Origin: an uncultured Candidatus Saccharibacteria bacterium
GTDB lineage: Bacteria; Patescibacteriota; Doudnabacteria; UBA920
Assembly: GCA_964436545.1 (NCBI GenBank)
Contig: CAYTCJ010000001.1
Span: 142,392-206,391, forward strand
Direction: 5' to 3'
Length of the DNA: 64,000 nucleotides
In this document: positions 6,472 to 53,366 of the stretch, in pieces
How the letters are laid out: each line of letters begins with the position of its first letter
How positions within the stretch are numbered: position 1 is the first letter of the stretch
The notes under the pieces: model-generated
Seen by the model: only the letters and a program-made list of their open reading frames with translations
Database searches by the model: none
What the model was told of the DNA's origin: nothing
Made by a program: the position numbers and the translations under genes

Positions 6472-7089
6472 ATGCCCAAAGAAATTACCAAAAGACAAAA
6501 AGAATTGCTCCAATTTATTATTAGAGAAATACGGGAACACAATTTACCGCCAAGTTTTTCGGAAATGATGGACTATTTTAAATATCGTTCTAAAAACGCC
6601 ATTGCCAAAATTTTAAAAGTTTTAGAACGAGAAGGTTATGTTAAAGTTTCCGGCAAGGCTCGCGGGATTGAAGTGCTCAAAACTTTAGGTGAAAGTTTAG
6701 AAAAGGGTTTGGTTAGCGTTCCACTTTTAGGCAATATCCAAGCCGGTAGCCCGCATTTGGCCGAAGAGCAAGTGGAAGAATGGATTAATTTACCCACTTC
6801 GCTTATTCGGGGCAGACGTGATGTATTTTTGTTAAAAGTGAGGGGAGATAGTATGGTAAATGCCGGAATTTATGAGCACGATTTAGTAATTGTCAGGCCG
6901 GTTAAAGAAGCTAAAAATAACGATATTGTTGTGGCACTGCTTCATGATGAAGCTACAGTAAAACGATTAATTTACGTAAAAAATCGAGCTTACCTAAAAG
7001 CTGAAAACCCTAATTATAAAAATATTTACCCTAAAGAGGAATGGATGATCCAAGGAAAAGTGGTGGGAGTGATTAGACAGCTTGAGTAG
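6472..7089 (+). CDS. lexA: LexA repressor
   Basis: Winged-helix N-terminal domain plus S24 peptidase domain with cleavage site and catalytic motifs (GNIQAGSP, RGDSMVNAGI, TVKRL). Confidence 0.93.
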   Translation: MPKEITKRQKELLQFIIREIREHNLPPSFSEMMDYFKYRSKNAIAKILKVLEREGYVKVSGKARGIEVLKTLGESLEKGLVSVPLLGNIQAGSPHLAEEQVEEWINLPTSLIRGRRDVFLLKVRGDSMVNAGIYEHDLVIVRPVKEAKNNDIVVALLHDEATVKRLIYVKNRAYLKAENPNYKNIYPKEEWMIQGKVVGVIRQLE

Positions 7090-7128
7090 AGTTATGGATT
7101 ATGAATAATGAATTATAAATAAAAAAAT

Positions 7129-7314
7129 ATGAGCGAAATTCAACAAAAAAAATTAAATATTATATCTGAGCTTAGAACACTGTGTGCTCATTGTGCGACC
7201 AGTGGCAATAGGGAACATAATTGTCCCATTAAACAAATTGCTTTAAAAGTGCAGTATTTACAAGGTGTCCCTTTAGTGGTAAATAGTGAATTTAAAGGTA
7301 TGCTTTGGGCCTAA
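7129..7314 (+). CDS. small Cys-containing hypothetical protein (61 aa)
   Basis: ORF with CAHC...HNC pattern; no family recognised. Confidence 0.35.
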   Translation: MSEIQQKKLNIISELRTLCAHCATSGNREHNCPIKQIALKVQYLQGVPLVVNSEFKGMLWA

Positions 7315-7400
7315 AAACAGATTTTAGATTTGTGATTGAGGATTTAAGAGTCATTTAATTTATAATTTAAAATTTATTTTGCTTATACATAAAACACTCG

Positions 7401-7652
7401 CTATTTGGCGAGTGTTTGTTTAATTGCTAATTGGATTTTTTCTAATTCAGCTCTTTTATTCCATAATTCTTGTTGTAAGGCCAAATTATGCTCAAATAGT
7501 GCTGTTTGATGTTCTGTGGTGAGAATTTTTATTTTATGATCTACGCAAAAGAGCGCCCAGTGGAGTTGCTCTTTGGACATTTTGTCAATCGCACCCAGTT
7601 CCGGAATTGTAATTCCCGGTTTTTCAAAAGTTGATTCGAGAGTTTTAGGCAT
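7401..7652 (-). CDS. hypothetical protein (83 aa)
   Basis: ORF only; helical C-terminal half. Confidence 0.4.
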   Translation of the reverse strand: MPKTLESTFEKPGITIPELGAIDKMSKEQLHWALFCVDHKIKILTTEHQTALFEHNLALQQELWNKRAELEKIQLAIKQTLAK

Positions 7653-7666
7653 AGGCAGTTAAAAGA

Positions 7667-8326
7667 TTATTTTTTGTAGTTTAAGTATTCTTTAGGTAAA
7701 TCAAGTTTAAATTTTTCGCACAATAATTTAACTGCTTCCACATACTTTCCCGGCCATTTATGTATCCAAGGCGACAGAAATTCAATCATATATTGAGGCG
7801 CAATACAACGGACAGTTTGGCCATCAATTACTCCAGTGCCTGTTAAAGATTCTGCTGGGTACATAATGCCATCAATAATACTACCATTGACATCACAAAC
7901 AAAAGCATGGACATCAAGCTTATTACCAATATTATCACCTAAAACAAAATTCCACTTGCTATCTTCCTTAATTTGTTTATAACCGTCTTTTTCTAAAAGC
8001 TCACGAAGCTTAGGCACAGCTTTCCAGTTTATAGCAATATCTAAATCGTTATGAGGGCGGAGTTGTTTGCCCAATAAAGCATCAACGCACCACCCGCCAT
8101 CAATCCAGATTTTAATATTATTGTTTTCAAATTGATTATATAAACTCAAAACTGTTTTAAGCTGCATTATTTTTTTTTGTAAATTAAAATAATCTTTTGT
8201 GCCTTTTAGCCACCCACCTTTTAAGAGTTGGCCGGAAAGGATTTGGCTTTTACTTGCCCAAAGGTAAGTGGTGTGAGCAGGGGAAAGGTTAATTTTCCCT
8301 TCTAAAAATTTGGCCTTGAAACCCAA
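7667..8326 (-). CDS. ANT(2'')-like nucleotidyltransferase domain protein (reading frame continues from the upstream Nudix gene)
   Basis: IWIDGGWCVDALLGKQLRPHNDLDIAI resembles the aminoglycoside-2''-adenylyltransferase family. An internal ATG at 8167 would give a stand-alone 167-aa protein. Confidence 0.7.
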   Translation of the reverse strand: MGFKAKFLEGKINLSPAHTTYLWASKSQILSGQLLKGGWLKGTKDYFNLQKKIMQLKTVLSLYNQFENNNIKIWIDGGWCVDALLGKQLRPHNDLDIAINWKAVPKLRELLEKDGYKQIKEDSKWNFVLGDNIGNKLDVHAFVCDVNGSIIDGIMYPAESLTGTGVIDGQTVRCIAPQYMIEFLSPWIHKWPGKYVEAVKLLCEKFKLDLPKEYLNYKK

Positions 8327-8616
8327 AGCAAAAATTTTGGCTTCACTAAGAGTGCCGACTTTTTCCTTCCGTTTGTGCCGGAAAAAATATCGGGTTGGTT
8401 ATTTACTTGATATTTAATTTGCTCTCCTAATTCTTCAATTATTTTTCTTTTTACAATGCTAGTGAGAGGTTTATTAAATTCATTTATTTTTATTCTCCCA
8501 CCCGATAAATCCCATTGCCCAAATTTGTCCTTTAAAACTAAAAGTTTGCCTTTAAATGTAAAGAATATTTTGACAGCCACAAAAAATAGTTCTTTGTGTT
8601 TGTTGTTTTTATCCAT
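8302..8616 (-). pseudogene. Nudix hydrolase, frameshifted at a homopolymer
   Basis: Nudix-box-like GGRIKINEFNKPLTSIVKRKIIEELG. Sensible Nudix sequence continues in the -1 frame after the A6 run at 8382-8387. Confidence 0.6.
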
Positions 8617-8622
8617 ATGAGT

Positions 8623-8697
8623 TGGTAGCGCTACCGGGAATCGAACCCGGATTTGTTGGATGAGAACCAACTATCCTAACCATTAGATGATAGCGCC
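8623..8697 (-). tRNA. tRNA-Glu (anticodon CUC) with encoded CCA
   Basis: Hand-folded cloverleaf: 7-bp acceptor, 4-bp D stem, GTTGG/CCAAC anticodon stem with loop TTCTCAT, 4-nt variable loop, CCGGG-TTCGATT-CCCGG T arm. Confidence 0.8.
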
Positions 8698-8915
8698 ATA
8701 TTGGGCAAGAATTATGAATTTTAAATTATGAATTAAGCAATGAGATTTATTTAACATTATCACTTTGCGGGTGACCACCCGAAGGGTGGGTGATAGCGCT
8801 ATAGACAGAATGATGAAAAACCAATTAACATTTACCAGCTTATCACAATGCTTTGTTTTTTTCAATATTTTATGACATAATATAAACACTGCATAGTTAA
8901 AACTTAAAAAGCTAA

Positions 8916-10130
8916 ATGACACAAAAATACAAATTTCCAGAAGGGTTTTTGTGGGGTGCGGCCTCTTCGGCGCATCAAACCGAGGGAAATAACACTAATT
9001 CCGACTGGTGGGCATGGGAAAATAGTCAAAAGCGAATAAATCAATTAAAAACTAAAGGCCTAAACCCCGAAGCTTTTAAAAGTGGAATTGCGGTTGATGC
9101 TTTTAATCGGTTTGATGAAGATTTTGCTTTGGCTAATATGCTAAAACACAATGCCACGCGGTTGTCCATTGAATGGGCCAGGATTGAACCAAAGCCCGGA
9201 GTATTTAACGAAGTAGCTTTAGAGCATTATGAGCAAGTTTTACGCTCTGCAAAATTTTATGGTTTAAAGACGTTCGTAACTTTACACCATTTTACCAATC
9301 CAATTTGGTTTGCTCAAAAAGGAGGTTTTGAGAACCGGGAAAATTTACAATATTTTATCCGCTATGCCAGTAAGATGGCAAGGCGTTTGTCGGAAAACGT
9401 AGATTTTTGGCTTACCATTAATGAACCGGAAGTTTATACTTTATTGAGTTATTGGCAAGGTGTGTTTCCGCCCCATAAAAAAAAGGTGTGGTCAGCGCTG
9501 AAGGTGGCAAAAAATTTGGTTTTGGCGCATAAGTTCGCAGTAAGAGAAATAAAATTTCATAGTCGCTCTCCGGTAAGTATGGCTTTTCACTTATCTAACG
9601 TGGTGGCAAACGGCCCAATTAGTAAGTTATTGGTAAAAATGTATAATCGTGTGTTTGGGCACTACTTTATCGATCAAACCATCAATTTTTGTGATTTTAT
9701 TGGGGTGAATTATTATTTTCAACATCAGATTGGGTGGCCAAATTTAGGAAAGTCATCCTTGAACCCAGATTTAAAAACCGATATTGGTTGGGAAATTCAT
9801 CCGGAAGGTTTAGAACCTGTGCTACTTGGTCTAAAAAAATACGAGAAACCAATATACATTACAGAGAATGGTATTGCGGATCAGCAAGATCATAAGCGTG
9901 AGCAGTTTATTAAAGAACATTTATTTTATGCTCACAAGGCCATAGCGAGCGGGGTAGATTTAAGAGGTTATTTACATTGGTCCTTAACGGATAATTTTGA
10001 ATGGGAAAAAGGTTTTGCGCCTAAGTTTGGTTTAGTTGCGGTTAATCGGGAGCAAAATTTTAAACGACAAGTGAGATTTAGTGCAATAAAATTTGCAGAA
10101 ATTTGTTGGAATAATTTTTTAGAATATTAA
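8916..10130 (+). CDS. beta-glucosidase, glycoside hydrolase family 1
   Basis: GH1 motifs FLWGAASSAHQTEG, TINEP and ITENG. Confidence 0.92.
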   Translation: MTQKYKFPEGFLWGAASSAHQTEGNNTNSDWWAWENSQKRINQLKTKGLNPEAFKSGIAVDAFNRFDEDFALANMLKHNATRLSIEWARIEPKPGVFNEVALEHYEQVLRSAKFYGLKTFVTLHHFTNPIWFAQKGGFENRENLQYFIRYASKMARRLSENVDFWLTINEPEVYTLLSYWQGVFPPHKKKVWSALKVAKNLVLAHKFAVREIKFHSRSPVSMAFHLSNVVANGPISKLLVKMYNRVFGHYFIDQTINFCDFIGVNYYFQHQIGWPNLGKSSLNPDLKTDIGWEIHPEGLEPVLLGLKKYEKPIYITENGIADQQDHKREQFIKEHLFYAHKAIASGVDLRGYLHWSLTDNFEWEKGFAPKFGLVAVNREQNFKRQVRFSAIKFAEICWNNFLEY

Positions 10131-10142
10131 AATTTCTGTATC

Positions 10143-11024
10143 ATGTTAAGTCTACTAACAATTTTACATTATTTGATTGCTGCAATTGTTGACACTTTGG
10201 ATAAATTTTTAATTTCCAAAAGAAAGATTCAGCCCGTGGCTTATACTTTTTGGAGCGTGATTACAGGTTTAGGAATTTTGGCAGTTTGGCCGTGGGTGTA
10301 CGAAAAAATTAGTTTAGGGCAAATGGGCCTAGACTTACTTTCGGGCGTGTTATTTAGTTTGGCCTTATATGTATTTTTAAAAGCCTTGTCCCAAGGTGAA
10401 GTTTCTCGAGTAATTCCGTTTATATTCGGGTTAGTACCCATATTTGATTTGCTGATTGGAAAAATTGTGGGACAAAATGCTTTATTCAGCCAAGAAATTT
10501 CGGCTATCTGTTTATTGGTACCCGGAGCCTTGATTATTTCCTACAAACCAAATTTTTGGGGAAAGCATTTGGTATTAAAGACCATGTCTGCCTTTTTGTG
10601 GAGCTGTAATTTTGCTTTGTGGCAATTTGTTGCCAAAACCGGAAATACGTTTAACCATTTTATGTTTAATCGGTTAGGGGCGGCCGGAATTTTAATTTTG
10701 TTTTTGGTTTGGCCGTACTACCGAACTTTGGTTTTTAAAAGAGAAACGGAAAGTAAACGTAAAGGCACAGTTGGTTTGTTTTTATTTAAACAAGTTTTGG
10801 GCGGGGCGAATATGATTTTTTTCAGTTGGTTGATTGTAGTGGGTAAAATTCCGTTGGTAAATGCTTTGCAGGGGTTTAGGTATGTGTTTTTATTCTTAGG
10901 AGCGTTATTCCTAAGTAAGAAAATGAAGCATTTATTAGAAGAAGATATTACTTCTAAAGTGGTAATGCAAAAAGTATGTGGGTTAGTTTTGATTATTTTA
11001 GGCACATTAGTATTATTTTTATAA
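10143..11024 (+). CDS. DMT/EamA-like multi-pass membrane transporter (tentative)
   Basis: 293 aa with about 10 hydrophobic segments; family call is by general resemblance only. Confidence 0.5.
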   Translation: MLSLLTILHYLIAAIVDTLDKFLISKRKIQPVAYTFWSVITGLGILAVWPWVYEKISLGQMGLDLLSGVLFSLALYVFLKALSQGEVSRVIPFIFGLVPIFDLLIGKIVGQNALFSQEISAICLLVPGALIISYKPNFWGKHLVLKTMSAFLWSCNFALWQFVAKTGNTFNHFMFNRLGAAGILILFLVWPYYRTLVFKRETESKRKGTVGLFLFKQVLGGANMIFFSWLIVVGKIPLVNALQGFRYVFLFLGALFLSKKMKHLLEEDITSKVVMQKVCGLVLIILGTLVLFL

Positions 11025-15111: not shown

Positions 15112-15517
15112 CTTGTCATCCCGTCCGCCAGCTGGCGGATTGATGCGGGATCCAGTTTATTTGATCAAGTTATTATATAAGTCTTGCCATTCAGGATTTT
15201 GTTTTTCAATTAAATCCAATTTCCATTTTCTTTTCCACTTTTTAAGCTGTTTTTCTCTTTCAATCGCAGATATTACTTCATTAGTTTGTTCATAATATAC
15301 TAAGGTGTGACATTTGTATCTCTTTGTAAAACCATCTGCTAAATTGTTTTTGTGTTGCCATGTTCTTTTTATTAAATCATTTGTGATCCCAATGTACAAA
15401 GTGCCGTTTCTTTTGCTTGCCATAATATATACATAGTAGTTTTTTTGATTTTTATACTTCATTGGGTGTTTTGTGTCTGGATCCCGCATCTCGGATGCAC
15501 TCGTGCGGGATGACAAG
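15112..15517 (-). mobile_element. GIY-YIG ORF enclosed by roughly 44-bp imperfect inverted-repeat arms
   Basis: Left arm CTTGTCATCCCG...GCGGGATCCAG (15112-15155) and right arm CTGGATCCCGC...CGGGATGACAAG (15477-15517) are reverse complements at both ends. Confidence 0.7.
15157..15462 (-). CDS. stand-alone GIY-YIG nuclease domain protein (101 aa)
   Basis: YYVYIMASKRNGTLYIGITNDLIKRTWQH and conserved E in AIEREKQLKKW. Start set at the internal ATG at 15462 because the track N-terminus runs through the repeat arm. Confidence 0.8.
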   Translation of the reverse strand: MKYKNQKNYYVYIMASKRNGTLYIGITNDLIKRTWQHKNNLADGFTKRYKCHTLVYYEQTNEVISAIEREKQLKKWKRKWKLDLIEKQNPEWQDLYNNLIK

Positions 15518-15541
15518 AAGGACAAGGAAGGGAGCTGGTAG

Positions 15542-16048
15542 TTATCGTTTTGTTTTTGAGAAAACACCCTTTATAGGTAAAACCAACTTCTCAAAATCTT
15601 TCATTGATAACTCAAAGCTGTCAGTATAAGAGCCGGCAGATGAAATAAGTTTTTTGCTCTTGGACATTCCTTTATCTAACAAGGTTTTAACATTATATTG
15701 ACTCCCAAACGGGTGTAAAAGGCCAATTTTAGTTTTTAGTTTTGCTTTAATTTCCTTTTCTGTGGCGAGGCTGACCTTTTTTGCCTTTAGAGCGGTTTTA
15801 ATTCCTTTTAAATCTAAATATTTACCTGCTGGCAGAACAATTAAAACAAAGTCTTTATCTGCACGCACTAAAACCACCTTAGCAATGTCGCTAAGTTTTC
15901 GTTTAGTGGTTTGGGCTAAATCGTGCGCCGTATACACGACTTTGTGTTTAAGTAAATTATACTTAACTTTGGTTTTATCTAAGAATTTGGTTAAATCGTT
16001 AGACAGTTTGGTGATTTTTGGATTTTTTTTCTTCATATTTTTTTTCAA
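15542..16048 (-). CDS. YbaK/aminoacyl-tRNA editing domain protein
   Basis: YbaK-like pattern (KVVLVRADKDFVLIVLPAGKYLDLKGIK ... HPFG). Confidence 0.7.
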   Translation of the reverse strand: MKKNMKKKNPKITKLSNDLTKFLDKTKVKYNLLKHKVVYTAHDLAQTTKRKLSDIAKVVLVRADKDFVLIVLPAGKYLDLKGIKTALKAKKVSLATEKEIKAKLKTKIGLLHPFGSQYNVKTLLDKGMSKSKKLISSAGSYTDSFELSMKDFEKLVLPIKGVFSKTKR

Positions 16049-16301
16049 TTTTTTTACCTATTAAATATAGTAAGGTCATATTTATTAACATAGGAATTAT
16101 AGTTACTAAAACTATTCCAACCTGATAAGGGATATTTGGGAATATAGAATAGAGTGGGCCTGAAATAAAAGACATAAAAAAACTCCATGGTAAAGTTAGT
16201 GTGCCAACAAAAAGCAATATCCCCATCGGCAGAGCAAAGACAAAGTAAATGGTCAAAATAAAATAAATAAGTGGCAGGATAATTTTCCAATGAAGTTTCA
16301 T
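15999..16301 (-). CDS. small membrane protein (100 aa)
   Basis: Three hydrophobic segments; overlaps the next gene's start by about 50 nt. Confidence 0.45.
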   Translation of the reverse strand: MKLHWKIILPLIYFILTIYFVFALPMGILLFVGTLTLPWSFFMSFISGPLYSIFPNIPYQVGIVLVTIIPMLINMTLLYLIGKKIEKKYEEKKSKNHQTV

Positions 16302-26861: not shown

Positions 26862-29800
26862 ATGCAAAGATTTAAATCACTTATAACTTTAAAGGTCTCA
26901 GTTTTAACCTTTGTGGGCCTGTTCCTCTTAGTTGGAACGGTTTTGGCTTTGGCGCCCAGACAAATTACCACTACCAAAGCTGAAAATTGTTACAATGCCC
27001 CGGAAGTTGCCACTTTAAACCCATTTCCAGTGTCTTGGAATGGGGTTACTGGCAGTGATTGTACTGATGCACCGGTGATTGCGATTAGAAATGCCAATGG
27101 GGGCAGTTATGCGCAAAGTGCCAGCGCCCAAGTGGGTGAAGAGTTAAGAGTCAGAATTTATATTCACAATGGTGCTCAGCAAGGTTTAGATACCAACTTA
27201 ACTACCTCTTTAGGGGTAAACGGGGGTATGTATATTAATGGAAATAACATTTCCATGACAGCGACAGCCAGCCGAGGTGATGGTAATGGCGGATATATCC
27301 CGACTAATTCTGTGAATGGTTCTGTGAATGTCGATTTGCCCAGCGGGGCTACTTTGGAAATGATTCCGGGAAGCGAGGAATTTTATGACTATCAGGCTAA
27401 CCGAATCTATTCCGGTTCCGCCGGTTTTTACGGACAGAGCGGAGTTTTTGACATGCAAAATATGGAAGCTTGTTTTGAGTTTTCTAAATTCTTTGTTTTT
27501 AGAGTTAAAGTGATTGGTGAAACCGGCGGGGGTATAAACCCTCCTGCAAATCCCGGCTCTGGTTGGTTAACTGCCAGTTTAGCCGGCACGGTGCCCAACC
27601 AATGCTTGTATAAAGCTAGAGTGCAATGGGATACGGAAAATATGTCCCAAGTGTTGGTGACTGTTTCCAATCCGGAGCAAAATTCCGACAATTATTATGG
27701 TAACGACGTAGTCTTTTCCTATTCGCCAAACAGTGACGAAACTGTTAATTGGATAAATCCTAATGATGGTTATAGGTTTACCCTGTGGGAAGTAAATCCT
27801 GCCAGCGGTGGTCAAAACATGAATGTGGCGGGACAAAATTTATTGGTTAAACACATTGCCGAGCAATGGGTAAGTGGTGGTGATGATAATTTTTGCCACA
27901 CTCCGGTAGCTGATTTAGTATGTTCTCCGGGCAGTCAAAATGCCATGGGGAATGACATTGTTTTATTTAATGCCCAAGGCGGGGATGAAACTTCCGAGTA
28001 TGTTTGGTCAGCCCCGGGTGGTTTTAACCAGCAAAGTAATGGGAAAAATTTTCATGTCACTTATCCGGCTCAGGCCAGTGGAAGTTTTACGGTCACAGTT
28101 TCCAATGCCGGACAGACGGCTGAATGTGTTGTGCATGTAAGTCCCAGAGAACAACAAAATACTAATTATGAATTACACGTTTATAATCAAAACGGTCAAT
28201 TAAAGGACAACGGAGAGTTTTGTGTGGGCGATACCCCACAATATAAAATTACCGGTAATGCTACCATTGCTGGGAGTAAAATTTTGTGGAGTTCTAGAAA
28301 AAATAACGTGCAAACCGGTGAATTTGATGCAGACTATGGTTTTACGTTAAATGCTCAAGGTAATTGGAGCGAATGGGGTTCCACTTGGAATAGTAGTCAT
28401 ATTGGTGATTGGGAAAAACAATCTAATGTTAACTATGTTTTAAAAACTGTAAGTTTTAGAGTGAAGGATTGTTCTAATACTCCTCCGCCTCCAGTGGCAG
28501 TTTGTCCAAGTCAAAATCTTTCTGGATACCCCACAACCATTAAAATTGGGGAATATGCAACTGTTTTAGCTCCAGCTGGTTGGAATGGCGGTACTTTAGT
28601 ATCTTCTAACCCAAATGTGGCTCCAGTTTTTGGTGGAAATAGTGTGGTTGGTAGAGCTCAAGGTAGTACTAATGTTTCTGGTACTGGCTTTACCGCACCA
28701 AACGGCGCCACCAATTGTGCTTTAGGTGCAGTAAATATTACTGTTACCCAAACTCAAACTCCTCCACCTTCAGCCGTGTGTCCAACTGGACAAAGTGTTT
28801 CTGTTTCTCCTGCCTCAATTAAAGTAGATGAGTATGCTACAGCTTATGCGCCTAGTGGCTGGTATGGTGGATCTTTTAGTTCATCTAATTCCAATGTTGC
28901 CTCAATTTCCGGTAGTAGCATAAGAGGTAATGCTCAAGGTACTGTATCAATCTCCGGTTCCGGGTTTACTGCTTCTAACGGCGCCACCAATTGTGCTTTA
29001 GGTGCGGTGAATGTTTCCGTGACCCAAACGCAAACTCCGCCTCCGGCAGTGTGTCCGAGCGGGTATAGTTTAAGCGTTTCCCCAACTTCCTTTAAAGTAG
29101 GCGAATACGGTTATATTACCGTGCCCAGCGGATGGTATGGTGGAAATTTTACTTCTTCAAATACTTCAGTAGCTAATATATCCGGTATGTCGGTTTATGG
29201 TTACGGTGCCGGTACAGCCTCTATTTCCGGCTCAGGCTGGACTGCTTCTAACGGCGCTACCAATTGTGCTTTAGGTGCGGTGAATGTTTCCGTGACCCAA
29301 ACTCCGCCTCCGGCTGTTTGTCCAACCGGCGCTTATGTCTCTGTTTCTCCCGCTTCCGTAAAAGTAGGTGAATATGCTACAGCTTATGCGCCTAGTGGCT
29401 GGAGTAATGGGAGTTTTAGTTCTTCAAATTCTTCTGTGGCTTCTGTTTCCGGCAATAGCATAAGAGGTAATGCTCAAGGTGCTGTATCAATTTCCGGTTC
29501 CGGGTTTACTGCTCCTAACGGCGCTGTTAACTGTGCCTTAATCGGAGCGAGTTTAAATGTGACCATTCAGCCTCCTCCTCCGGCAGAATGTCCAAGTAAT
29601 GCCAGCGTGAGAGTGACTCCGGCTAATATTTATGTAAATGATTTTGCCACTGTTTCCGCTCCGGCTGGTTTTAGTAACGGAAGTTTTGTTTCTTCCAATC
29701 CTTCAGTAGCCAGTTTGGTAGATGGTGCCAGAGGTAATTCAATCAAAGGTTTATCGGCCGGTACGGCTTATGTGTCCGGAACTAACTGGACTGCGCCTAA

Positions 29801-32411
29801 CGGGGCTGTTAATTGCAGTTTAAGCAGTGATTCAATTACAGTAAGTAATCGACCAATTCAGCCTCCGGCAGAAGTTACCGCCAGTGCCACCGCTACCGCC
29901 AGTGCCACCGCTTATGCCAGCTGTCCAGATGGCACCAGAGCCAGCGCCAGCGCTTCGGCCAGTGCCACTGCCACCGCGACCGCGAGCACCAGAGGTGAAG
30001 CGGAAAAGTTAGCTTACGAAAGGGCCTATGCTCAAGCTGAAGCTATGGCCTATGCCCAAGCTGAAGCCAAGGTAGTTTGTAAAGAATTACCCCCACCGCC
30101 TCCAGCTCAATTAACCTGTTCCCCAATTCAACAAACCGCGGATGTTAACCAGACTGTGAATTTTTCCGCTAATGGCGGAAATGGGACTTACACTTGGACC
30201 GCCAACGGCGCCGTAATTACCAGCGGTAACGGCAGTCAATTTAGCACTCGTTATACTCAAGGCGGCAGTAAAGTGGTAAGTGTAAGTAGCGGAAATCAAA
30301 CGCAAAATTGTTATGTGCAAGTTAATCAAGTTCAAACAGAAGCGTTAACTTGTACCACTTTAACTCCGGAAGTGGAAATTAACCAAACTGCCAATTTTAG
30401 GGCTACCGGCGGGGCGACCTCGGCTTACGCTTGGCAAGCTTTGGGAGCTAATCCGGCCAGTGGCAACGGACGTGATTTTAGCACTAAATTCAGTTCCGCG
30501 GGTTATAAAACCGTCTTTGTGCAAAATGGTTCTGCTACCGAAAGCTGTTCGGTGAGAGTTAAAGAACCTGTCCAGTCCAATGCGGAAATGGAATTGGTAA
30601 AGACCGTTCGAAATCTTACCGACAATACCGACTTTAGTCATAACGTAAGCGCTAAACAAAACGATAAAGTAGAATACAAAATTTTTGTGAGAGCTTTAAC
30701 CGCTACTGCTTTGCGCAATGTTAGAGTTACCGACGAAATGCCTTTCGGTTTAATTTACGAAGCCGGTAGTTTAAAAGTGGACGGTCAAAGCTCCAATCCG
30801 GGCTTGACGAGTGGTGGTTTAGTGTTTGATACGGTTAATCAAAATGGGATTACCATTACTTACCGAGCGACGGTAAATGTGAATAGTGGCACCCTTACCA
30901 ATTTGGCCCGAGCTACGGCCGATAATGCCCAAAGTAAATTAGATCGAGCCAATATTACTGTAGTGCCGGTTGTTCAAGGTCAACCAACTTTAAGCATAAC
31001 TAAAGAAGTTAGAAACTTAGGACCTTCTCAGACTACTAACTTTACTTCTTCGGTAAATGCCAAAAAGTCCGATACCGTTCAATATCGCATTACGGTTAGA
31101 AATGTGGGCAATGCCACAGCTAACAATGTGGTCTTAAGCGACTCCAGCATTATTATCAATTCCATTACCGGTTTGTCTGTTTCCAAAACTTATTCCGGCA
31201 CCTTGTCAAACGGTTTGAATTTAGGCAGTTTGGCTCAAGGTGAAAATGTCATTATCACTTACAATGCCAATGTGTCCATTGAGCAGGGTGAAATTAGAAA
31301 TACCGCTACGGTCTCGGCTTCTAATGCTTCTACCGAAAGAGCCATTGCTTTAGTTAATGTGATCAAAGACAATGAACCACCGGTCAATCCGCCGGGCGGA
31401 GGGAGTACTAATATTATCAACACTTGTGTAAACAATTCCTGCAACAACACGAATATTGTTTACATCAACCAAACCGGAGGCACTGTGCCGGCAAATGACT
31501 TTAGACAACTTTCTATTTCAAAGTTAGTCAGAAGTATTAATGGTGGAGCGTTCCAAGACAGTGTAAGCGTTAACAATAACGATACCGTGGAATTCGAAGT
31601 CATTGTAAGAAATACAGGGAATCAGGTAGTTAATAATGTCATCTTAAACGATACCTTTAGCTCTAATTTGTATTTGGTTTCCGGTACGGTGAGAGTAGAT
31701 GGTAATTATTGGGGTGATAATATTAACTCAATTAATTTAGGTAGTATTTTAAGCGGTCAGCAAAAACGGGTGGTGTTCCAAGCTAGAGTTAATGGTGCTT
31801 CCGGTCAAACCGTACAAAATATTGCCAGAGTTTACGGCGATAATGCCAATCAAGTGCAGGATGACGCTTGGGTGTTTGTGCAAGGTGGTCAAGTGCAAGG
31901 GGGTAATGTAAATTTGGTTTATAGCAAAAAAGCAGTAAACGAAACCAAGAATACCGAGGCTACCGCTGTTGTAGCCAGTAAAGAAGATTATATTACCTAT
32001 ACCTTAACCGTAACCAACTCCGGTAATGTACCGGCTAACAGTTTTGTGATCACCGATGACTTAAGCCAAGTTTTACCTTATGCCGATATGGTAGATAACG
32101 GCGGTGGATCTTTATCCGGAAATATTTTGTCTTACCCCGGCATTACCATCCCAGCGGGGGGCAGTGTAAGTAAGAGCTTTAAAGTCAGAGTCAAATTTGC
32201 TTTAGCAGCTAACTTGTCTTACACCATGACTAACACTTATGGCAATACCGTAAGTATCCGCATTAATACCCCGCAAGTTTTAGGTGCTTTTGTGGCTCCG
32301 AAAACCGGTGGGCCTTCCGCTCAAATGGCTTCTATCTTTGGTACCTTAATGGTTGCCGGTATGGTAGTAGTGAGAAATAGAAAAAAAGTTTTGGAACTTA
32401 TCTGGAGTTAA
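26862..32411 (+). CDS. 1849-aa sortase-substrate surface protein (signal peptide, Ig-like/PKD-like repeats, DUF11-type repeats, C-terminal APKTG sorting signal)
   Basis: N-terminal signal/TM. Repeated modules. C-terminus is VAPKTGG, then a hydrophobic helix, then RNRKK, the classic sorting-signal architecture. Confidence 0.88.
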   Translation: MQRFKSLITLKVSVLTFVGLFLLVGTVLALAPRQITTTKAENCYNAPEVATLNPFPVSWNGVTGSDCTDAPVIAIRNANGGSYAQSASAQVGEELRVRIYIHNGAQQGLDTNLTTSLGVNGGMYINGNNISMTATASRGDGNGGYIPTNSVNGSVNVDLPSGATLEMIPGSEEFYDYQANRIYSGSAGFYGQSGVFDMQNMEACFEFSKFFVFRVKVIGETGGGINPPANPGSGWLTASLAGTVPNQCLYKARVQWDTENMSQVLVTVSNPEQNSDNYYGNDVVFSYSPNSDETVNWINPNDGYRFTLWEVNPASGGQNMNVAGQNLLVKHIAEQWVSGGDDNFCHTPVADLVCSPGSQNAMGNDIVLFNAQGGDETSEYVWSAPGGFNQQSNGKNFHVTYPAQASGSFTVTVSNAGQTAECVVHVSPREQQNTNYELHVYNQNGQLKDNGEFCVGDTPQYKITGNATIAGSKILWSSRKNNVQTGEFDADYGFTLNAQGNWSEWGSTWNSSHIGDWEKQSNVNYVLKTVSFRVKDCSNTPPPPVAVCPSQNLSGYPTTIKIGEYATVLAPAGWNGGTLVSSNPNVAPVFGGNSVVGRAQGSTNVSGTGFTAPNGATNCALGAVNITVTQTQTPPPSAVCPTGQSVSVSPASIKVDEYATAYAPSGWYGGSFSSSNSNVASISGSSIRGNAQGTVSISGSGFTASNGATNCALGAVNVSVTQTQTPPPAVCPSGYSLSVSPTSFKVGEYGYITVPSGWYGGNFTSSNTSVANISGMSVYGYGAGTASISGSGWTASNGATNCALGAVNVSVTQTPPPAVCPTGAYVSVSPASVKVGEYATAYAPSGWSNGSFSSSNSSVASVSGNSIRGNAQGAVSISGSGFTAPNGAVNCALIGASLNVTIQPPPPAECPSNASVRVTPANIYVNDFATVSAPAGFSNGSFVSSNPSVASLVDGARGNSIKGLSAGTAYVSGTNWTAPNGAVNCSLSSDSITVSNRPIQPPAEVTASATATASATAYASCPDGTRASASASASATATATASTRGEAEKLAYERAYAQAEAMAYAQAEAKVVCKELPPPPPAQLTCSPIQQTADVNQTVNFSANGGNGTYTWTANGAVITSGNGSQFSTRYTQGGSKVVSVSSGNQTQNCYVQVNQVQTEALTCTTLTPEVEINQTANFRATGGATSAYAWQALGANPASGNGRDFSTKFSSAGYKTVFVQNGSATESCSVRVKEPVQSNAEMELVKTVRNLTDNTDFSHNVSAKQNDKVEYKIFVRALTATALRNVRVTDEMPFGLIYEAGSLKVDGQSSNPGLTSGGLVFDTVNQNGITITYRATVNVNSGTLTNLARATADNAQSKLDRANITVVPVVQGQPTLSITKEVRNLGPSQTTNFTSSVNAKKSDTVQYRITVRNVGNATANNVVLSDSSIIINSITGLSVSKTYSGTLSNGLNLGSLAQGENVIITYNANVSIEQGEIRNTATVSASNASTERAIALVNVIKDNEPPVNPPGGGSTNIINTCVNNSCNNTNIVYINQTGGTVPANDFRQLSISKLVRSINGGAFQDSVSVNNNDTVEFEVIVRNTGNQVVNNVILNDTFSSNLYLVSGTVRVDGNYWGDNINSINLGSILSGQQKRVVFQARVNGASGQTVQNIARVYGDNANQVQDDAWVFVQGGQVQGGNVNLVYSKKAVNETKNTEATAVVASKEDYITYTLTVTNSGNVPANSFVITDDLSQVLPYADMVDNGGGSLSGNILSYPGITIPAGGSVSKSFKVRVKFALAANLSYTMTNTYGNTVSIRINTPQVLGAFVAPKTGGPSAQMASIFGTLMVAGMVVVRNRKKVLELIWS
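28483..29865 (+). repeat. five tandem roughly 270-bp (about 90-aa) Ig-like repeats inside the giant gene
   Basis: Each unit runs PPP-(A)VCP...NGA(T/V)NCAL...V(T/S)VTQT. Long stretches of DNA identity occur between units, e.g. AACGGCGCCACCAATTGTGCTTTAGGTGC. Confidence 0.85.
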
Positions 32412-53009: not shown

Positions 53010-53366
53010 ATGGCTGAATATCCAATAAATCCCGAAGTTTGGGCAGAAAATTTTTTTACCGCAGAGGTAGTTGATGCTGATGATCCGAAGTCACTAATAA
53101 AAAGAACCAGGTTTATAATAACCGAAACAGGTAAAATACTTATTGGTTATCAACATAGTGACATTATAAAATTTGGCGGTGCCACTGTATTCTCTAATTT
53201 AGATGGAGTTTACAAGTATCATCTTATAGATGAAAAAAATAAAATTATGTTTTATAAAGATGATGCTGGAATAAAGCAATTATTTAATTTTCAATTAAGT
53301 GATGCTGACATAGAGATAGTTAAAAAAGTGATTGCAAGAAAAATTAAAGCTGTGCTTGGATACTAA
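53010..53366 (+). CDS. hypothetical protein (118 aa)
   Basis: ORF only. Confidence 0.45.
   Translation: MAEYPINPEVWAENFFTAEVVDADDPKSLIKRTRFIITETGKILIGYQHSDIIKFGGATVFSNLDGVYKYHLIDEKNKIMFYKDDAGIKQLFNFQLSDADIEIVKKVIARKIKAVLGY

What the first reader, a model, noticed from the sequence alone, without database searches (positions are those of the whole stretch)
7667..8616. Nudix hydrolase and ANT(2'')-like nucleotidyltransferase joined in one reading frame, separated only by a homopolymer frameshift
The Nudix ORF (from the ATG at 8616) loses sensible sequence after QPDIF at a T6 run (plus-strand A6 at 8382-8387). In the -1 frame the sequence continues as a credible Nudix C-terminus (FRHKRKEKVGTLSEAKIFALGFKAKFLEGKINLSPAHTTYLW). 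It then runs without a stop into the nucleotidyltransferase domain (IWIDGGWCVDALLG...DLDIAI). One extra T would give a fusion protein of about 317 aa. The options are a sequencing indel, a recent pseudogenisation, or slippage-controlled expression. A Nudix-NTase fusion next to a tRNA gene is an unusual accessory combination, with possible roles in nucleotide-signal or antibiotic modification.
Basis: partly seen in the sequence, partly recalled or inferred. Interest (0 to 1): 0.5.

Follow-up and report, generated by a model that had tools for sequence, protein, structure and literature searches.

The report
Frameshifted Nudix gene beside separate nucleotidyltransferase
A small Nudix hydrolase gene in an uncultured Patescibacteria genome was recently broken by the loss of one base, and it only appears fused to the intact antibiotic-type nucleotidyltransferase gene next to it, because relatives keep the two as separate genes.

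Summary
On the minus strand, the ORF from ATG 8616 loses its frame after ..QPDIF at a T6 run (plus-strand A6, 8382-8387). The -1 frame then stays open to the nucleotidyltransferase (NTase) stop at 7667. The fusion reading is not supported.

- **Nudix part.** It is a divergent Nudix/MutT-family protein. Its three intact close relatives (146-147 aa) and the 120 best family members (140-171 aa) are all stand-alone and end just after DYF.
- **The lesion.** Relatives read TTTTT-ATT-CG where the window reads TTTTT-TCCG. One A of an Ile codon was lost, so the T6 run is a product of the deletion.
- **Sequence reliability.** An independent Logan assembly of SRR11567520 is 100% identical across both homopolymer runs. 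In the window, 150 runs of 6 or more bases lie inside intact long ORFs.
- **Age.** dN/dS is about 0.10 before and after the break, so the break is very recent.
- **NTase.** It is a PF10706, Lnu/ANT(2'')-family gene. Its start (ATG 8167, MQLKT) matches its orthologue's start (MQLTT). Its homologues are mostly 173-187 aa single-domain proteins.
- **Gene order.** One relative has a Bro-N gene between the two genes. The closest relatives have no NTase.
- **Missing stop.** It lies at a remodelled junction with an A9 run. A8 would give ..NLQKK* with a TAATG stop/start overlap.

Verdict: a young pseudogene next to an ordinary accessory gene. Low interest.

The parts
8623..8697 (-). tRNA-Glu (anticodon CTC). 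It is the conserved anchor of the variable islet, and its 3' CCA ends 6 nt before the Nudix ATG.
   Evidence: ARAGORN. The same tRNA sits next to the GH1 gene in 9 related loci.
8171..8616 (-). Full extent of the Nudix/MutT-family gene as it would read after repair (about 148 codons). It is disrupted by a 1-nt deletion and has no in-frame stop before the NTase ATG.
   Evidence: 88% and 69% identical to the intact 147-aa P0121 and 146-aa P0122. The family profile hits PF00293-bearing proteins. The best PDB hits are MutT/Nudix.
8302..8616 (-). The ORF actually open in the sequence: 104 aa, made of 78 native Nudix residues and 26 out-of-frame residues, ending at TAG 8302-8304.
   Evidence: The identical protein P0123 is called on the 220,518-bp NCBI contig and in Logan SRR11567520.
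8382..8387 (-). Frameshift site. T6 on the coding strand was created by loss of the A of an ancestral ATT/ATC Ile codon (TTTTT-A-TC became TTTTTTC).
   Evidence: DNA alignment A4. L001, L009 and L002 all read TTTTTATTCG. The window and the independent Logan contig both read TTTTT-TCCG.
8165..8185 (-). Remodelled junction AATTTAC-A9-TAATG. The A9 run is at 8170-8178 and the NTase ATG at 8165-8167. The relatives' stop codons are absent. An A8 run would give ..DYFNLQKK* with a TAATG stop/start overlap.
   Evidence: Homology with L001 ends at window 8185 and with L002 at 8173.
7667..8167 (-). Intact stand-alone NTase gene of the Lnu/ANT(2'') family: 166 aa, MQLKT...LNYKK*.
   Evidence: PF10706, E 4e-24. 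Lnu(P/D/C) models give about 80 bits, far below their cut-offs of 300-325. PDB ANT(2'')-Ia and LnuA, E 1e-10. The orthologue in L002 starts MQLTT after an intergenic spacer. Gene callers start it here. dN/dS against L002 is 0.11.
7401..7652 (-). Conserved 83-aa ORF of unknown function, the last gene of the islet.
   Evidence: Homologues of 86 aa (L001, L009) and 90 aa (L002) sit at the same relative position. No Pfam hit.

Best explanation
This is a small variable gene islet immediately 3' of tRNA-Glu(CTC) in a Patescibacteria genome, probably Doudnabacteria-like. Its genes run Nudix, NTase, 83-aa ORF, all on the minus strand.

The Nudix gene belongs to a family of stand-alone MutT-like proteins of about 146 aa. 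In this genome it has just been inactivated by loss of a single A. Ribosomes now make a 104-aa truncated product that keeps the Nudix box but lacks the C-terminal half of the fold.

The NTase is a separate, intact gene translated from its own ATG at 8167. By family, it is expected to transfer a nucleotidyl group from an NTP to a hydroxyl of a small molecule (inferred). A lincosamide- or aminoglycoside-like antibiotic is the obvious candidate substrate.

The apparent fusion is incidental. The two genes were brought within 18 nt of each other by an indel that removed what is a Bro-N gene plus spacers in a sister lineage. They happen to be in the same frame. The Nudix stop codon is missing at a junction that carries a mutable A9 run.

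Shown: the frameshift, its reproducibility in a second assembly, the separate-gene architecture in relatives, and the family assignments. Inferred: the substrate, the order of events, and that no fusion protein is made.
For: - **Frame break and open frame:**
- **Intact stand-alone relatives:** P0121 (147 aa) and P0122 (146 aa), plus P0283-P0285.
- **Gene order in relatives:** L001 and L009 have Nudix followed 8 nt later by the 86-aa ORF, with no NTase. L002-L006 have Nudix, Bro-N, NTase and a 90-aa ORF.
- **Nature of the lesion:** a 1-nt deletion relative to three intact sequences.
- **Sequence reliability:** the Logan contig L007 is 100% identical over window 7878-10540. In the window, 150 homopolymer runs of 6 or more bases lie inside 24 intact ORFs of 300 aa or more.
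- **Age of the break:** dN/dS is 0.10 before and 0.10 after the frameshift. The window branch has 12 synonymous and 3 nonsynonymous changes.
- **Nudix family:** 747 homologues were found. The best 120 are 140-171 aa, nearly all carry PF00293, and none carries PF10706.
- **NTase family:** most of the 120 best hits are single-domain proteins of 173-187 aa that start about 12-20 residues before IWIDGGW.
- **Location:** an islet at a conserved tRNA-Glu between LexA and GH1. No hit to either gene in the stretches (up to 6 kb per side) fetched around LexA from 78 species-representative genomes, about 70 of them close Patescibacteria relatives.
Against: - With the single base restored there is no stop before the NTase. 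If the break is younger than the junction, the lineage may have made a fusion protein for some time.
- The low dN/dS after the break is also what one would see if that segment were still translated, or if the indel were a read-level artefact.
- Read pile-ups were not available. The Logan assembly may come from the same reads as the deposited genome.
- No Shine-Dalgarno sequence is evident before the NTase ATG.
- The window copy has P38S in the otherwise near-invariant LPGG of the Nudix box. This hints that constraint may have relaxed slightly earlier.
Confidence: 0.8

Rival explanations
1. The frameshift is a sequencing or assembly error. The organism really encodes an uninterrupted 316-317-aa Nudix-NTase fusion protein.
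For: - Repairing one base gives a continuous ORF.
- dN/dS after the break is as low as before it.
- The NTase family does occur fused to many other domains, including methyltransferase, NYN, GNAT, CN-hydrolase and MsrAB.
Against: - Two assemblies, the NCBI contig and Logan SRR11567520, agree base for base.
- The missing base is an A that interrupts a T run, which is not a typical homopolymer miscount.
- 150 other runs of 6 or more bases are intact in long ORFs.
- No fused homologue appears in any listed search result.
- No intact allele exists in the 15-billion-protein collection.
- The closest relatives keep a stop after DYF.
Confidence: 0.07
2. Expression is controlled by slippage. Ribosomal -1 frameshifting at U6, or polymerase slippage at the T6 and A9 runs, produces a mixture of truncated Nudix, full-length Nudix and Nudix-NTase fusion.
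For: - Two homopolymer runs lie exactly at the two decisive positions: T6 at the break, and A9 just before TAATG.
- From general knowledge, runs of about 9 A are known to cause transcriptional slippage.
- The segment after the break still looks constrained.
Against: - The T6 run is absent from all intact relatives, so it is not a conserved recoding site.
- In the zero frame the motif is ATT TTT TCC, not an X XXY YYZ heptamer (sequence).
- The downstream RNA fold is not exceptional, with z = -1.46 and 13 of 200 shuffles folding as well.
- A run of six T is short for efficient transcriptional slippage (general knowledge).
- The A9 junction is not shared with relatives.
Confidence: 0.04
3. The lineage first made a working Nudix-NTase fusion, because the junction formed before the break. 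The fusion was then uncoupled by the frameshift, so what remains is a decayed fusion gene.
For: - The break is very young.
- The junction differs from both relatives by many changes, which suggests an older recombination event.
- No stop lies between the two parts.
Against: - The junction cannot be dated from the data.
- A single A8-to-A9 slip after pseudogenisation would also remove the stop (sequence).
- No fused relatives are known.
- The linker is only 6 residues long.
Confidence: 0.09

Closest known systems
Nudix (MutT-like) hydrolase superfamily, Pfam PF00293: a subfamily of stand-alone proteins of about 145 aa, several labelled Saccharibacteria or Saccharimonadales by their sources
   Same: - The best PDB matches are MutT/Nudix structures: 3grn, 2pqv, 3id9 and NudI.
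- G39, G40, R41, E61, E62 and G64 of the Nudix box are invariant.
   Different: - The Nudix box has a 3-residue insertion (G x5 E x10 R[K/E]xxEE[LIV]G rather than G x5 E x7 REUxEExGU). The window clade has RK instead of RE.
- Pfam NUDIX does not reach threshold on the window copy or on P0121/P0122.
- The window copy is frameshifted and carries P38S.
- The substrate is unknown.
Lincosamide nucleotidyltransferases Lnu(C), Lnu(D) and Lnu(P), and aminoglycoside 2''-nucleotidyltransferase ANT(2'')-Ia (Pfam PF10706)
   Same: - Same domain and length: 166 aa, PF10706, E 4e-24.
- The GG..DxD motif (IDGGW..DLDIA) and the following Asp (LDVHAF) align with ANT(2'')-Ia.
- Single-domain architecture, like most homologues.
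   Different: - Scores of about 80 bits against the Lnu models are far below their 300-325 cut-offs. ANT(2'')-Ia scores 40 against a cut-off of 350. It is therefore not an equivalog of any characterised resistance enzyme.
- It is chromosomal, in an uncultured Patescibacteria genome.
- No resistance phenotype or substrate has been tested.
Antibiotic-resistance-like genes reported across Candidate Phyla Radiation genomes (Maatouk et al., mSystems 2021, PMC8651080)
   Same: That survey reports aminoglycoside adenylyltransferase-like and MLS (macrolide-lincosamide-streptogramin) resistance-like genes in all CPR superphyla. The NTase here fits that picture.
   Different: The paper does not mention lnu genes or any Nudix link. 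It gives no functional proof for this family.

Membership tests
Nudix hydrolase superfamily (PF00293) | Significant sequence match to the NUDIX domain model | tested here: inconclusive
   The window copy, repaired or not, has no PF00293 hit at E <= 0.1. P0121 scores 20.1 bits against a cut-off of 21.1, and P0122 scores 17.3. However, family members that match the P0121/P0122 profile at E 1e-30 to 1e-19 pass with 29-48 bits. Almost all of the 120 best profile hits carry PF00293. Membership therefore rests on transitive homology.
Nudix hydrolase superfamily (PF00293) | Nudix box G x5 E x7 R E U x E E x G U | tested here: inconclusive
   A variant box is present: G40 RIKIN E46 FNKPLTSIVK R57 K I I E61 E62 L G64. 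It has a 3-residue longer loop and RK in place of RE. The EE pair and the glycines are invariant across 14 family members.
Nudix hydrolase superfamily (PF00293) | Alpha/beta/alpha Nudix fold | tested here: inconclusive
   The AlphaFold model of P0121 has a mean pLDDT of only 61. All of the top 50 Foldseek PDB hits belong to the Nudix fold superfamily (Nudix hydrolases, IPP isomerase, TIRR), but with TM about 0.4 and E >= 3e-3.
Nudix hydrolase superfamily (PF00293) | Intact ORF that encodes the whole domain | tested here: not met
   A 1-nt deletion at 8382-8387 truncates the native sequence after residue 78.
Nudix hydrolase superfamily (PF00293) | Pyrophosphohydrolase activity on a nucleoside diphosphate-X substrate | not testable with these tools
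   This needs an enzyme assay of an intact homologue such as P0121.
Lnu/ANT(2'') nucleotidyltransferases (PF10706) | Match to PF10706 above the gathering score | tested here: met
   85.8 bits against a cut-off of 21, E 4.3e-24, covering profile positions 2-132 of 149.
Lnu/ANT(2'') nucleotidyltransferases (PF10706) | Pol-beta-type catalytic motif: G[GS] followed by DxD, plus a third acidic residue | tested here: met
   IDGGWCVDALLG...HNDLDIAI and LDVHAF align with the ANT(2'')-Ia motifs GGGWAIDA...HDDIDLTF and LDCEPAW.
Lnu/ANT(2'') nucleotidyltransferases (PF10706) | Equivalog-level similarity to a characterised resistance enzyme: Lnu(A/C/D/P) or ANT(2'')-Ia | tested here: not met
   The best NCBIfam scores are 83.6, 80.6 and 80.5 bits against cut-offs of 300-325. 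ANT(2'')-Ia scores 40.1 against 350.
Lnu/ANT(2'') nucleotidyltransferases (PF10706) | Nucleotidylylation of a lincosamide or aminoglycoside, conferring resistance | not testable with these tools
   This needs heterologous expression with MIC or enzyme assays.
   The frame is broken in the window and in the independent Logan assembly.
   No fusion appears among the listed hits of three large searches. P0078 covers 100% of the query, but it is an NYN-NTase fusion with no similarity to the Nudix part. Relatives have separate genes.
Programmed -1 ribosomal frameshift site | Conserved slippery heptamer X XXY YYZ in the zero frame, plus a downstream stimulatory structure | tested here: not met
   The zero-frame codons are ATT TTT TCC. 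The site is absent from relatives. The downstream fold has z = -1.46.

The most novel reading that the evidence does not exclude
This lineage carries a real bifunctional Nudix-NTase gene whose output is switched by length changes in two homopolymer tracts. T6 at 8382-8387 would set whether the Nudix reading frame is intact, and A9 at 8170-8178 would set whether the two parts are fused or separate. This would be a phase-variable link between a nucleotide pyrophosphatase and a nucleotidyl-transferring enzyme in a reduced-genome episymbiont.
Probability: 0.04. Interest if true: 0.5.

Novelty: new member of a known kind. Interest (0 to 1): 0.12.

Why it matters
It matters little beyond annotation. 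The locus should be annotated as a frameshifted Nudix pseudogene plus a separate PF10706 NTase gene, not as a new fusion architecture.

Three modest points of value remain:
- It documents a small variable islet at tRNA-Glu(CTC) in Doudnabacteria-like Patescibacteria, in which an Lnu/ANT(2'')-like gene is present or absent between close relatives.
- It defines a Nudix subfamily with a lengthened Nudix box that Pfam barely detects.
- It shows how gene adjacency plus a lost stop can mimic a domain fusion.

Tried and rejected
- **Pfam and NCBIfam on the repaired fusion.** There was no NUDIX hit, only a weak NudI hit at E 0.0023. The Nudix call had to be established through homologues.
- Structure prediction and the search of protein representatives turned it away. 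I used P0121 and P0122 instead.
- **Structure model.** The model was poor, with pLDDT 61. Foldseek hits are consistent with Nudix but weak.
- **Nudix profile against genome contigs.** Nothing was found. The metagenome-contig scan returned only the already known SXGR01446003 contig.
- **P0078.** It appeared to cover 100% of the fusion query, but it is an NYN-NTase fusion unrelated to the Nudix part.
- **Exact look-up of four hypothetical intact alleles.** These were fused or stand-alone, with I or F at the repair site. None exists in the collection.
- **att-like repeat of the tRNA 3' end.** None flanks the islet.
- **Programmed frameshifting.** No signal was found.
- **Other frameshifted genes in the window.** The candidate ORF trio at 15157-16301 turned out to be separate GIY-YIG and YbaK-type genes. 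ORF 53010-53366 is not a PGI N-terminus.
- **Promoter and terminator scan.** Promoter-like sites were no more frequent than in shuffles, and no useful terminator-like site turned up.
- **Literature.** The search found only the general CPR resistome survey.

Full report
**1. The observation**

On the minus strand, an ATG at 8616 opens a 104-aa ORF, MDKNN...QPDIF-SGTNGRKK...RPNF*, which stops at TAG 8302-8304. The coding-strand T6 run is plus-strand A6 at 8382-8387. The -1 frame reads ..FFRHKRKEKVGTLSEAKIFALGFKAKFLEGKINLSPAHTTYLWASKSQILSGQLLKGGWLKGTKDYFNLQKKIMQLKTVLSLYNQFENNNIKIWIDGGWCVDALLG... It runs without a stop to TAA at 7667-7669. One added base gives a 316-aa product. tRNA-Glu(CTC) lies at 8623-8697 on the same strand.

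**2. What the two parts are**

*The C-terminal part.* It matches Pfam PF10706 (aminoglycoside-2''-adenylyltransferase) at E 4e-24.
- Its best NCBIfam matches are Lnu(P), Lnu(D) and Lnu(C), at about 80 bits against cut-offs of 300-325. ANT(2'')-Ia scores 40 bits against 350.
- The best solved structures are ANT(2'')-Ia (4wqk, 4xje) and LnuA (4fo1), at E 1e-10. The GG...DxD motif and the following Asp are conserved.
- It therefore belongs to the Lnu/ANT(2'') NTase family but is not an equivalog of any characterised resistance enzyme.

*The N-terminal part.* The window copy is not recognised by Pfam NUDIX.
- A profile of its two intact homologues finds 496 cluster representatives. Most are 140-157 aa.
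- Seven of the eight more distant representatives tested pass the PF00293 threshold, with 29-48 bits.
- A 14-sequence profile finds 747 proteins. The best 120 are 140-171 aa, nearly all carry PF00293, and several are labelled MutT/NUDIX by their sources.
- The top PDB sequence hits are all MutT/Nudix proteins, led by 3grn at E 1e-3.
- A low-confidence model (pLDDT 61) finds only Nudix-superfamily folds.
- The family has a lengthened Nudix box, G x5 E x10 R[K/E]xxEE[LIV]G, with G39, G40, R41, E61, E62 and G64 invariant.

The 'Nudix' label is therefore right, as a divergent subfamily.

**3. The frameshift is a 1-nt deletion and it is in the data**

Only three close homologues exist in 5.8 billion clusters. 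P0121 (147 aa, 88% identity) and P0122 (146 aa, 68%) are intact. P0123 is the window's own 104-aa product.

At the break, L001, L009 and L002 all read ATT TTT ATT CG(N) CA(Y), which translates as I-F-I-R-H. The window reads ATT TTT -TC CGG CAC. The A of an Ile codon was lost. The T6 run is a consequence of that loss, not an ancestral slippery tract.

The Logan assembly of run SRR11567520 was built independently of the deposited 220,518-bp NCBI contig. It is 100% identical to window 7878-10540, which includes both the T6 and the A9 runs. Within the window, 150 homopolymer runs of 6 or more bases sit inside 24 intact ORFs of 300 aa or more. I found no second frameshifted gene. The assembly is therefore not indel-prone. 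I could not see read pile-ups.

**4. The break is young**

Against L001, dN/dS is 0.105 for codons 1-78 and 0.096 for codons 79-144. Changes polarised to the window branch are 12 synonymous and 3 nonsynonymous. The segment after the break has therefore spent almost all of its history under purifying selection. One of the three replacements is P38S. It lies in the LPGG of the Nudix box, where every other sequence in the 14-member alignment has Pro.

**5. Relatives keep two separate genes**

- In L001 and L009 (JGI samples), the Nudix gene ends ..DYFINY-TAA. It is followed 8 nt later by an 86-aa ORF, the homologue of window 7401-7652. There is no NTase at all.
- In L002-L006, the Nudix gene ends ..DYFKI-TAG. 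Next comes a 279-aa Bro-N gene, and then a 170-aa NTase that starts MQLTT after a 40-nt spacer. A 90-aa ORF overlaps the NTase stop.
- The window's NTase starts MQLKT at ATG 8167. This is where the orthologue starts and where gene callers place it.
- The NTase is 72.6% identical and the Nudix gene 69% identical between the window and L002. This suggests both genes descend from the common ancestor. The NTase dN/dS is 0.11.
- Most of the best 120 NTase homologues are single-domain proteins of 173-187 aa. They begin about 12-20 residues before IWIDGGW. The fusions that do exist involve other partners, such as methyltransferase, NYN, GNAT, CN-hydrolase, MsrAB and a/b-hydrolase. None involves Nudix.

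**6. Why there is no stop**

Homology with L001 ends at window 8185 and with L002 at 8173. This is right after GATTATTTTA, which encodes DYF. The window's junction is AATTTAC-A9-TAATG.
- In the present sequence the TAA of TAATG is in the frame of the Nudix N-terminus, not the frame of its C-terminal part.
- With A8 instead of A9, the repaired gene would end ..DYFNLQKK-TAA and overlap the NTase ATG as TAATG.
- The missing stop is therefore one slip away, in a 9-base homopolymer.
- The chance that two genes 18 nt apart are in frame with no stop between them is about 0.2 (my estimate).
- An imperfect 19-nt direct repeat brackets the NTase gene at 7666-7684 and 8169-8187. In such AT-rich DNA this may be a chance match.

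**7. Context**

LexA, a 61-aa Cys-rich ORF, tRNA-Glu(CTC) and a GH1 glycosidase form a backbone that recurs in the related loci checked. The 78 loci retrieved through LexA are mostly labelled Candidatus Doudnabacteria, Patescibacteria group or Saccharibacteria. Neither the Nudix-like gene nor the NTase was found in the stretches held for any of them. The LexA-GH1 interval varies from 1.1 to about 5 kb.

The Nudix, (Bro-N), NTase and 83-aa ORF set is therefore a clade-specific islet directly 3' of the tRNA. I found no repeat of the tRNA 3' end. No integrase is apparent among the islet's ORFs.

**8. Mechanism and verdict**

The best-supported reading has three parts, with confidence about 0.8:
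- a freshly pseudogenised stand-alone Nudix gene;
- an independent, intact Lnu/ANT(2'')-family NTase translated from its own ATG;
- an incidental in-frame adjacency.

Programmed frameshifting has no support. There is no in-frame X XXY YYZ heptamer, the site is not conserved, and the downstream fold is unremarkable at z = -1.46. The rivals cannot be fully excluded without reads. They are a sequencing error that hides a real fusion, a former fusion that has since decayed, and slippage-controlled expression. Together I give them about 0.2.

Resistance-like transferases are already reported as common in CPR genomes (PMC8651080). The finding is ordinary and of low interest.

Noticed in passing
window 8616-8623 (also L001 1469-1476): The Nudix ATG lies only 6 nt after the encoded 3' CCA of tRNA-Glu(CTC). 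This leaves no room for a promoter or a Shine-Dalgarno sequence. It implies co-transcription with the tRNA and a nearly leaderless mRNA after tRNA 3' processing. L002 instead has an 81-aa ORF between the tRNA and the Nudix gene.
   Followed up: partly
window 7089-8916; L028, L031, L032 and others: The backbone LexA, small Cys-rich ORF, tRNA-Glu(CTC), GH1 recurs in the related Doudnabacteria/Patescibacteria MAGs checked. The LexA-GH1 interval varies from about 1.1 to 5 kb, so it is a hotspot of gene-content variation. L001, L010 and L032 carry a 23S rRNA IVP (PF05635) gene after LexA that the window lacks.
   Followed up: partly
L002 3555-4394 (and L003-L006): A 279-aa Bro-N domain gene (PF02498) sits between the Nudix and NTase genes in the sister lineage. 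From general knowledge, Bro-N domains are typical of phage and mobile-element proteins. It is absent from the window and from L001.
   Followed up: no
window 7666-7684 and 8169-8187: An imperfect 19-nt direct repeat (84% identity) brackets the NTase gene exactly. On the coding strand the copies read TTAAACTACAAAAAATAAT and TTAATTTACAAAAAAAAAT. It may mark the breakpoints of NTase gain or loss, or it may be a chance match in AT-rich DNA.
   Followed up: no
window 7401-7652 (minus): An 83-aa ORF with no Pfam hit is conserved as the last gene of the islet in all three arrangements (86 aa in L001, 90 aa in L002). In L002 its start overlaps the NTase stop as ATGA, which suggests translational coupling.
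   Followed up: partly
window 7129-7314 (plus): A 61-aa ORF with a CxxC...C motif (..LCAHCATSGNREHNCPIKQ..) is 97.5% identical in DNA to L001. The flanking genes are only 80-92% identical. A 67-aa homologue is present in L032. It is unusually conserved for a small unannotated ORF.
   Followed up: no
window 26862-32411 (plus): A 1849-aa ORF carries repeated DUF11, DUF7507 and PKD-like domains. It is probably a large surface or adhesin-type protein.
   Followed up: no
L010 (JGI Ga0490007_000125), contig end at 7642: A 35.5-kb contig of a close relative ends shortly past the 61-aa ORF that follows LexA, just before the islet position. This is consistent with strain heterogeneity breaking assemblies at this variable spot.
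   Followed up: no
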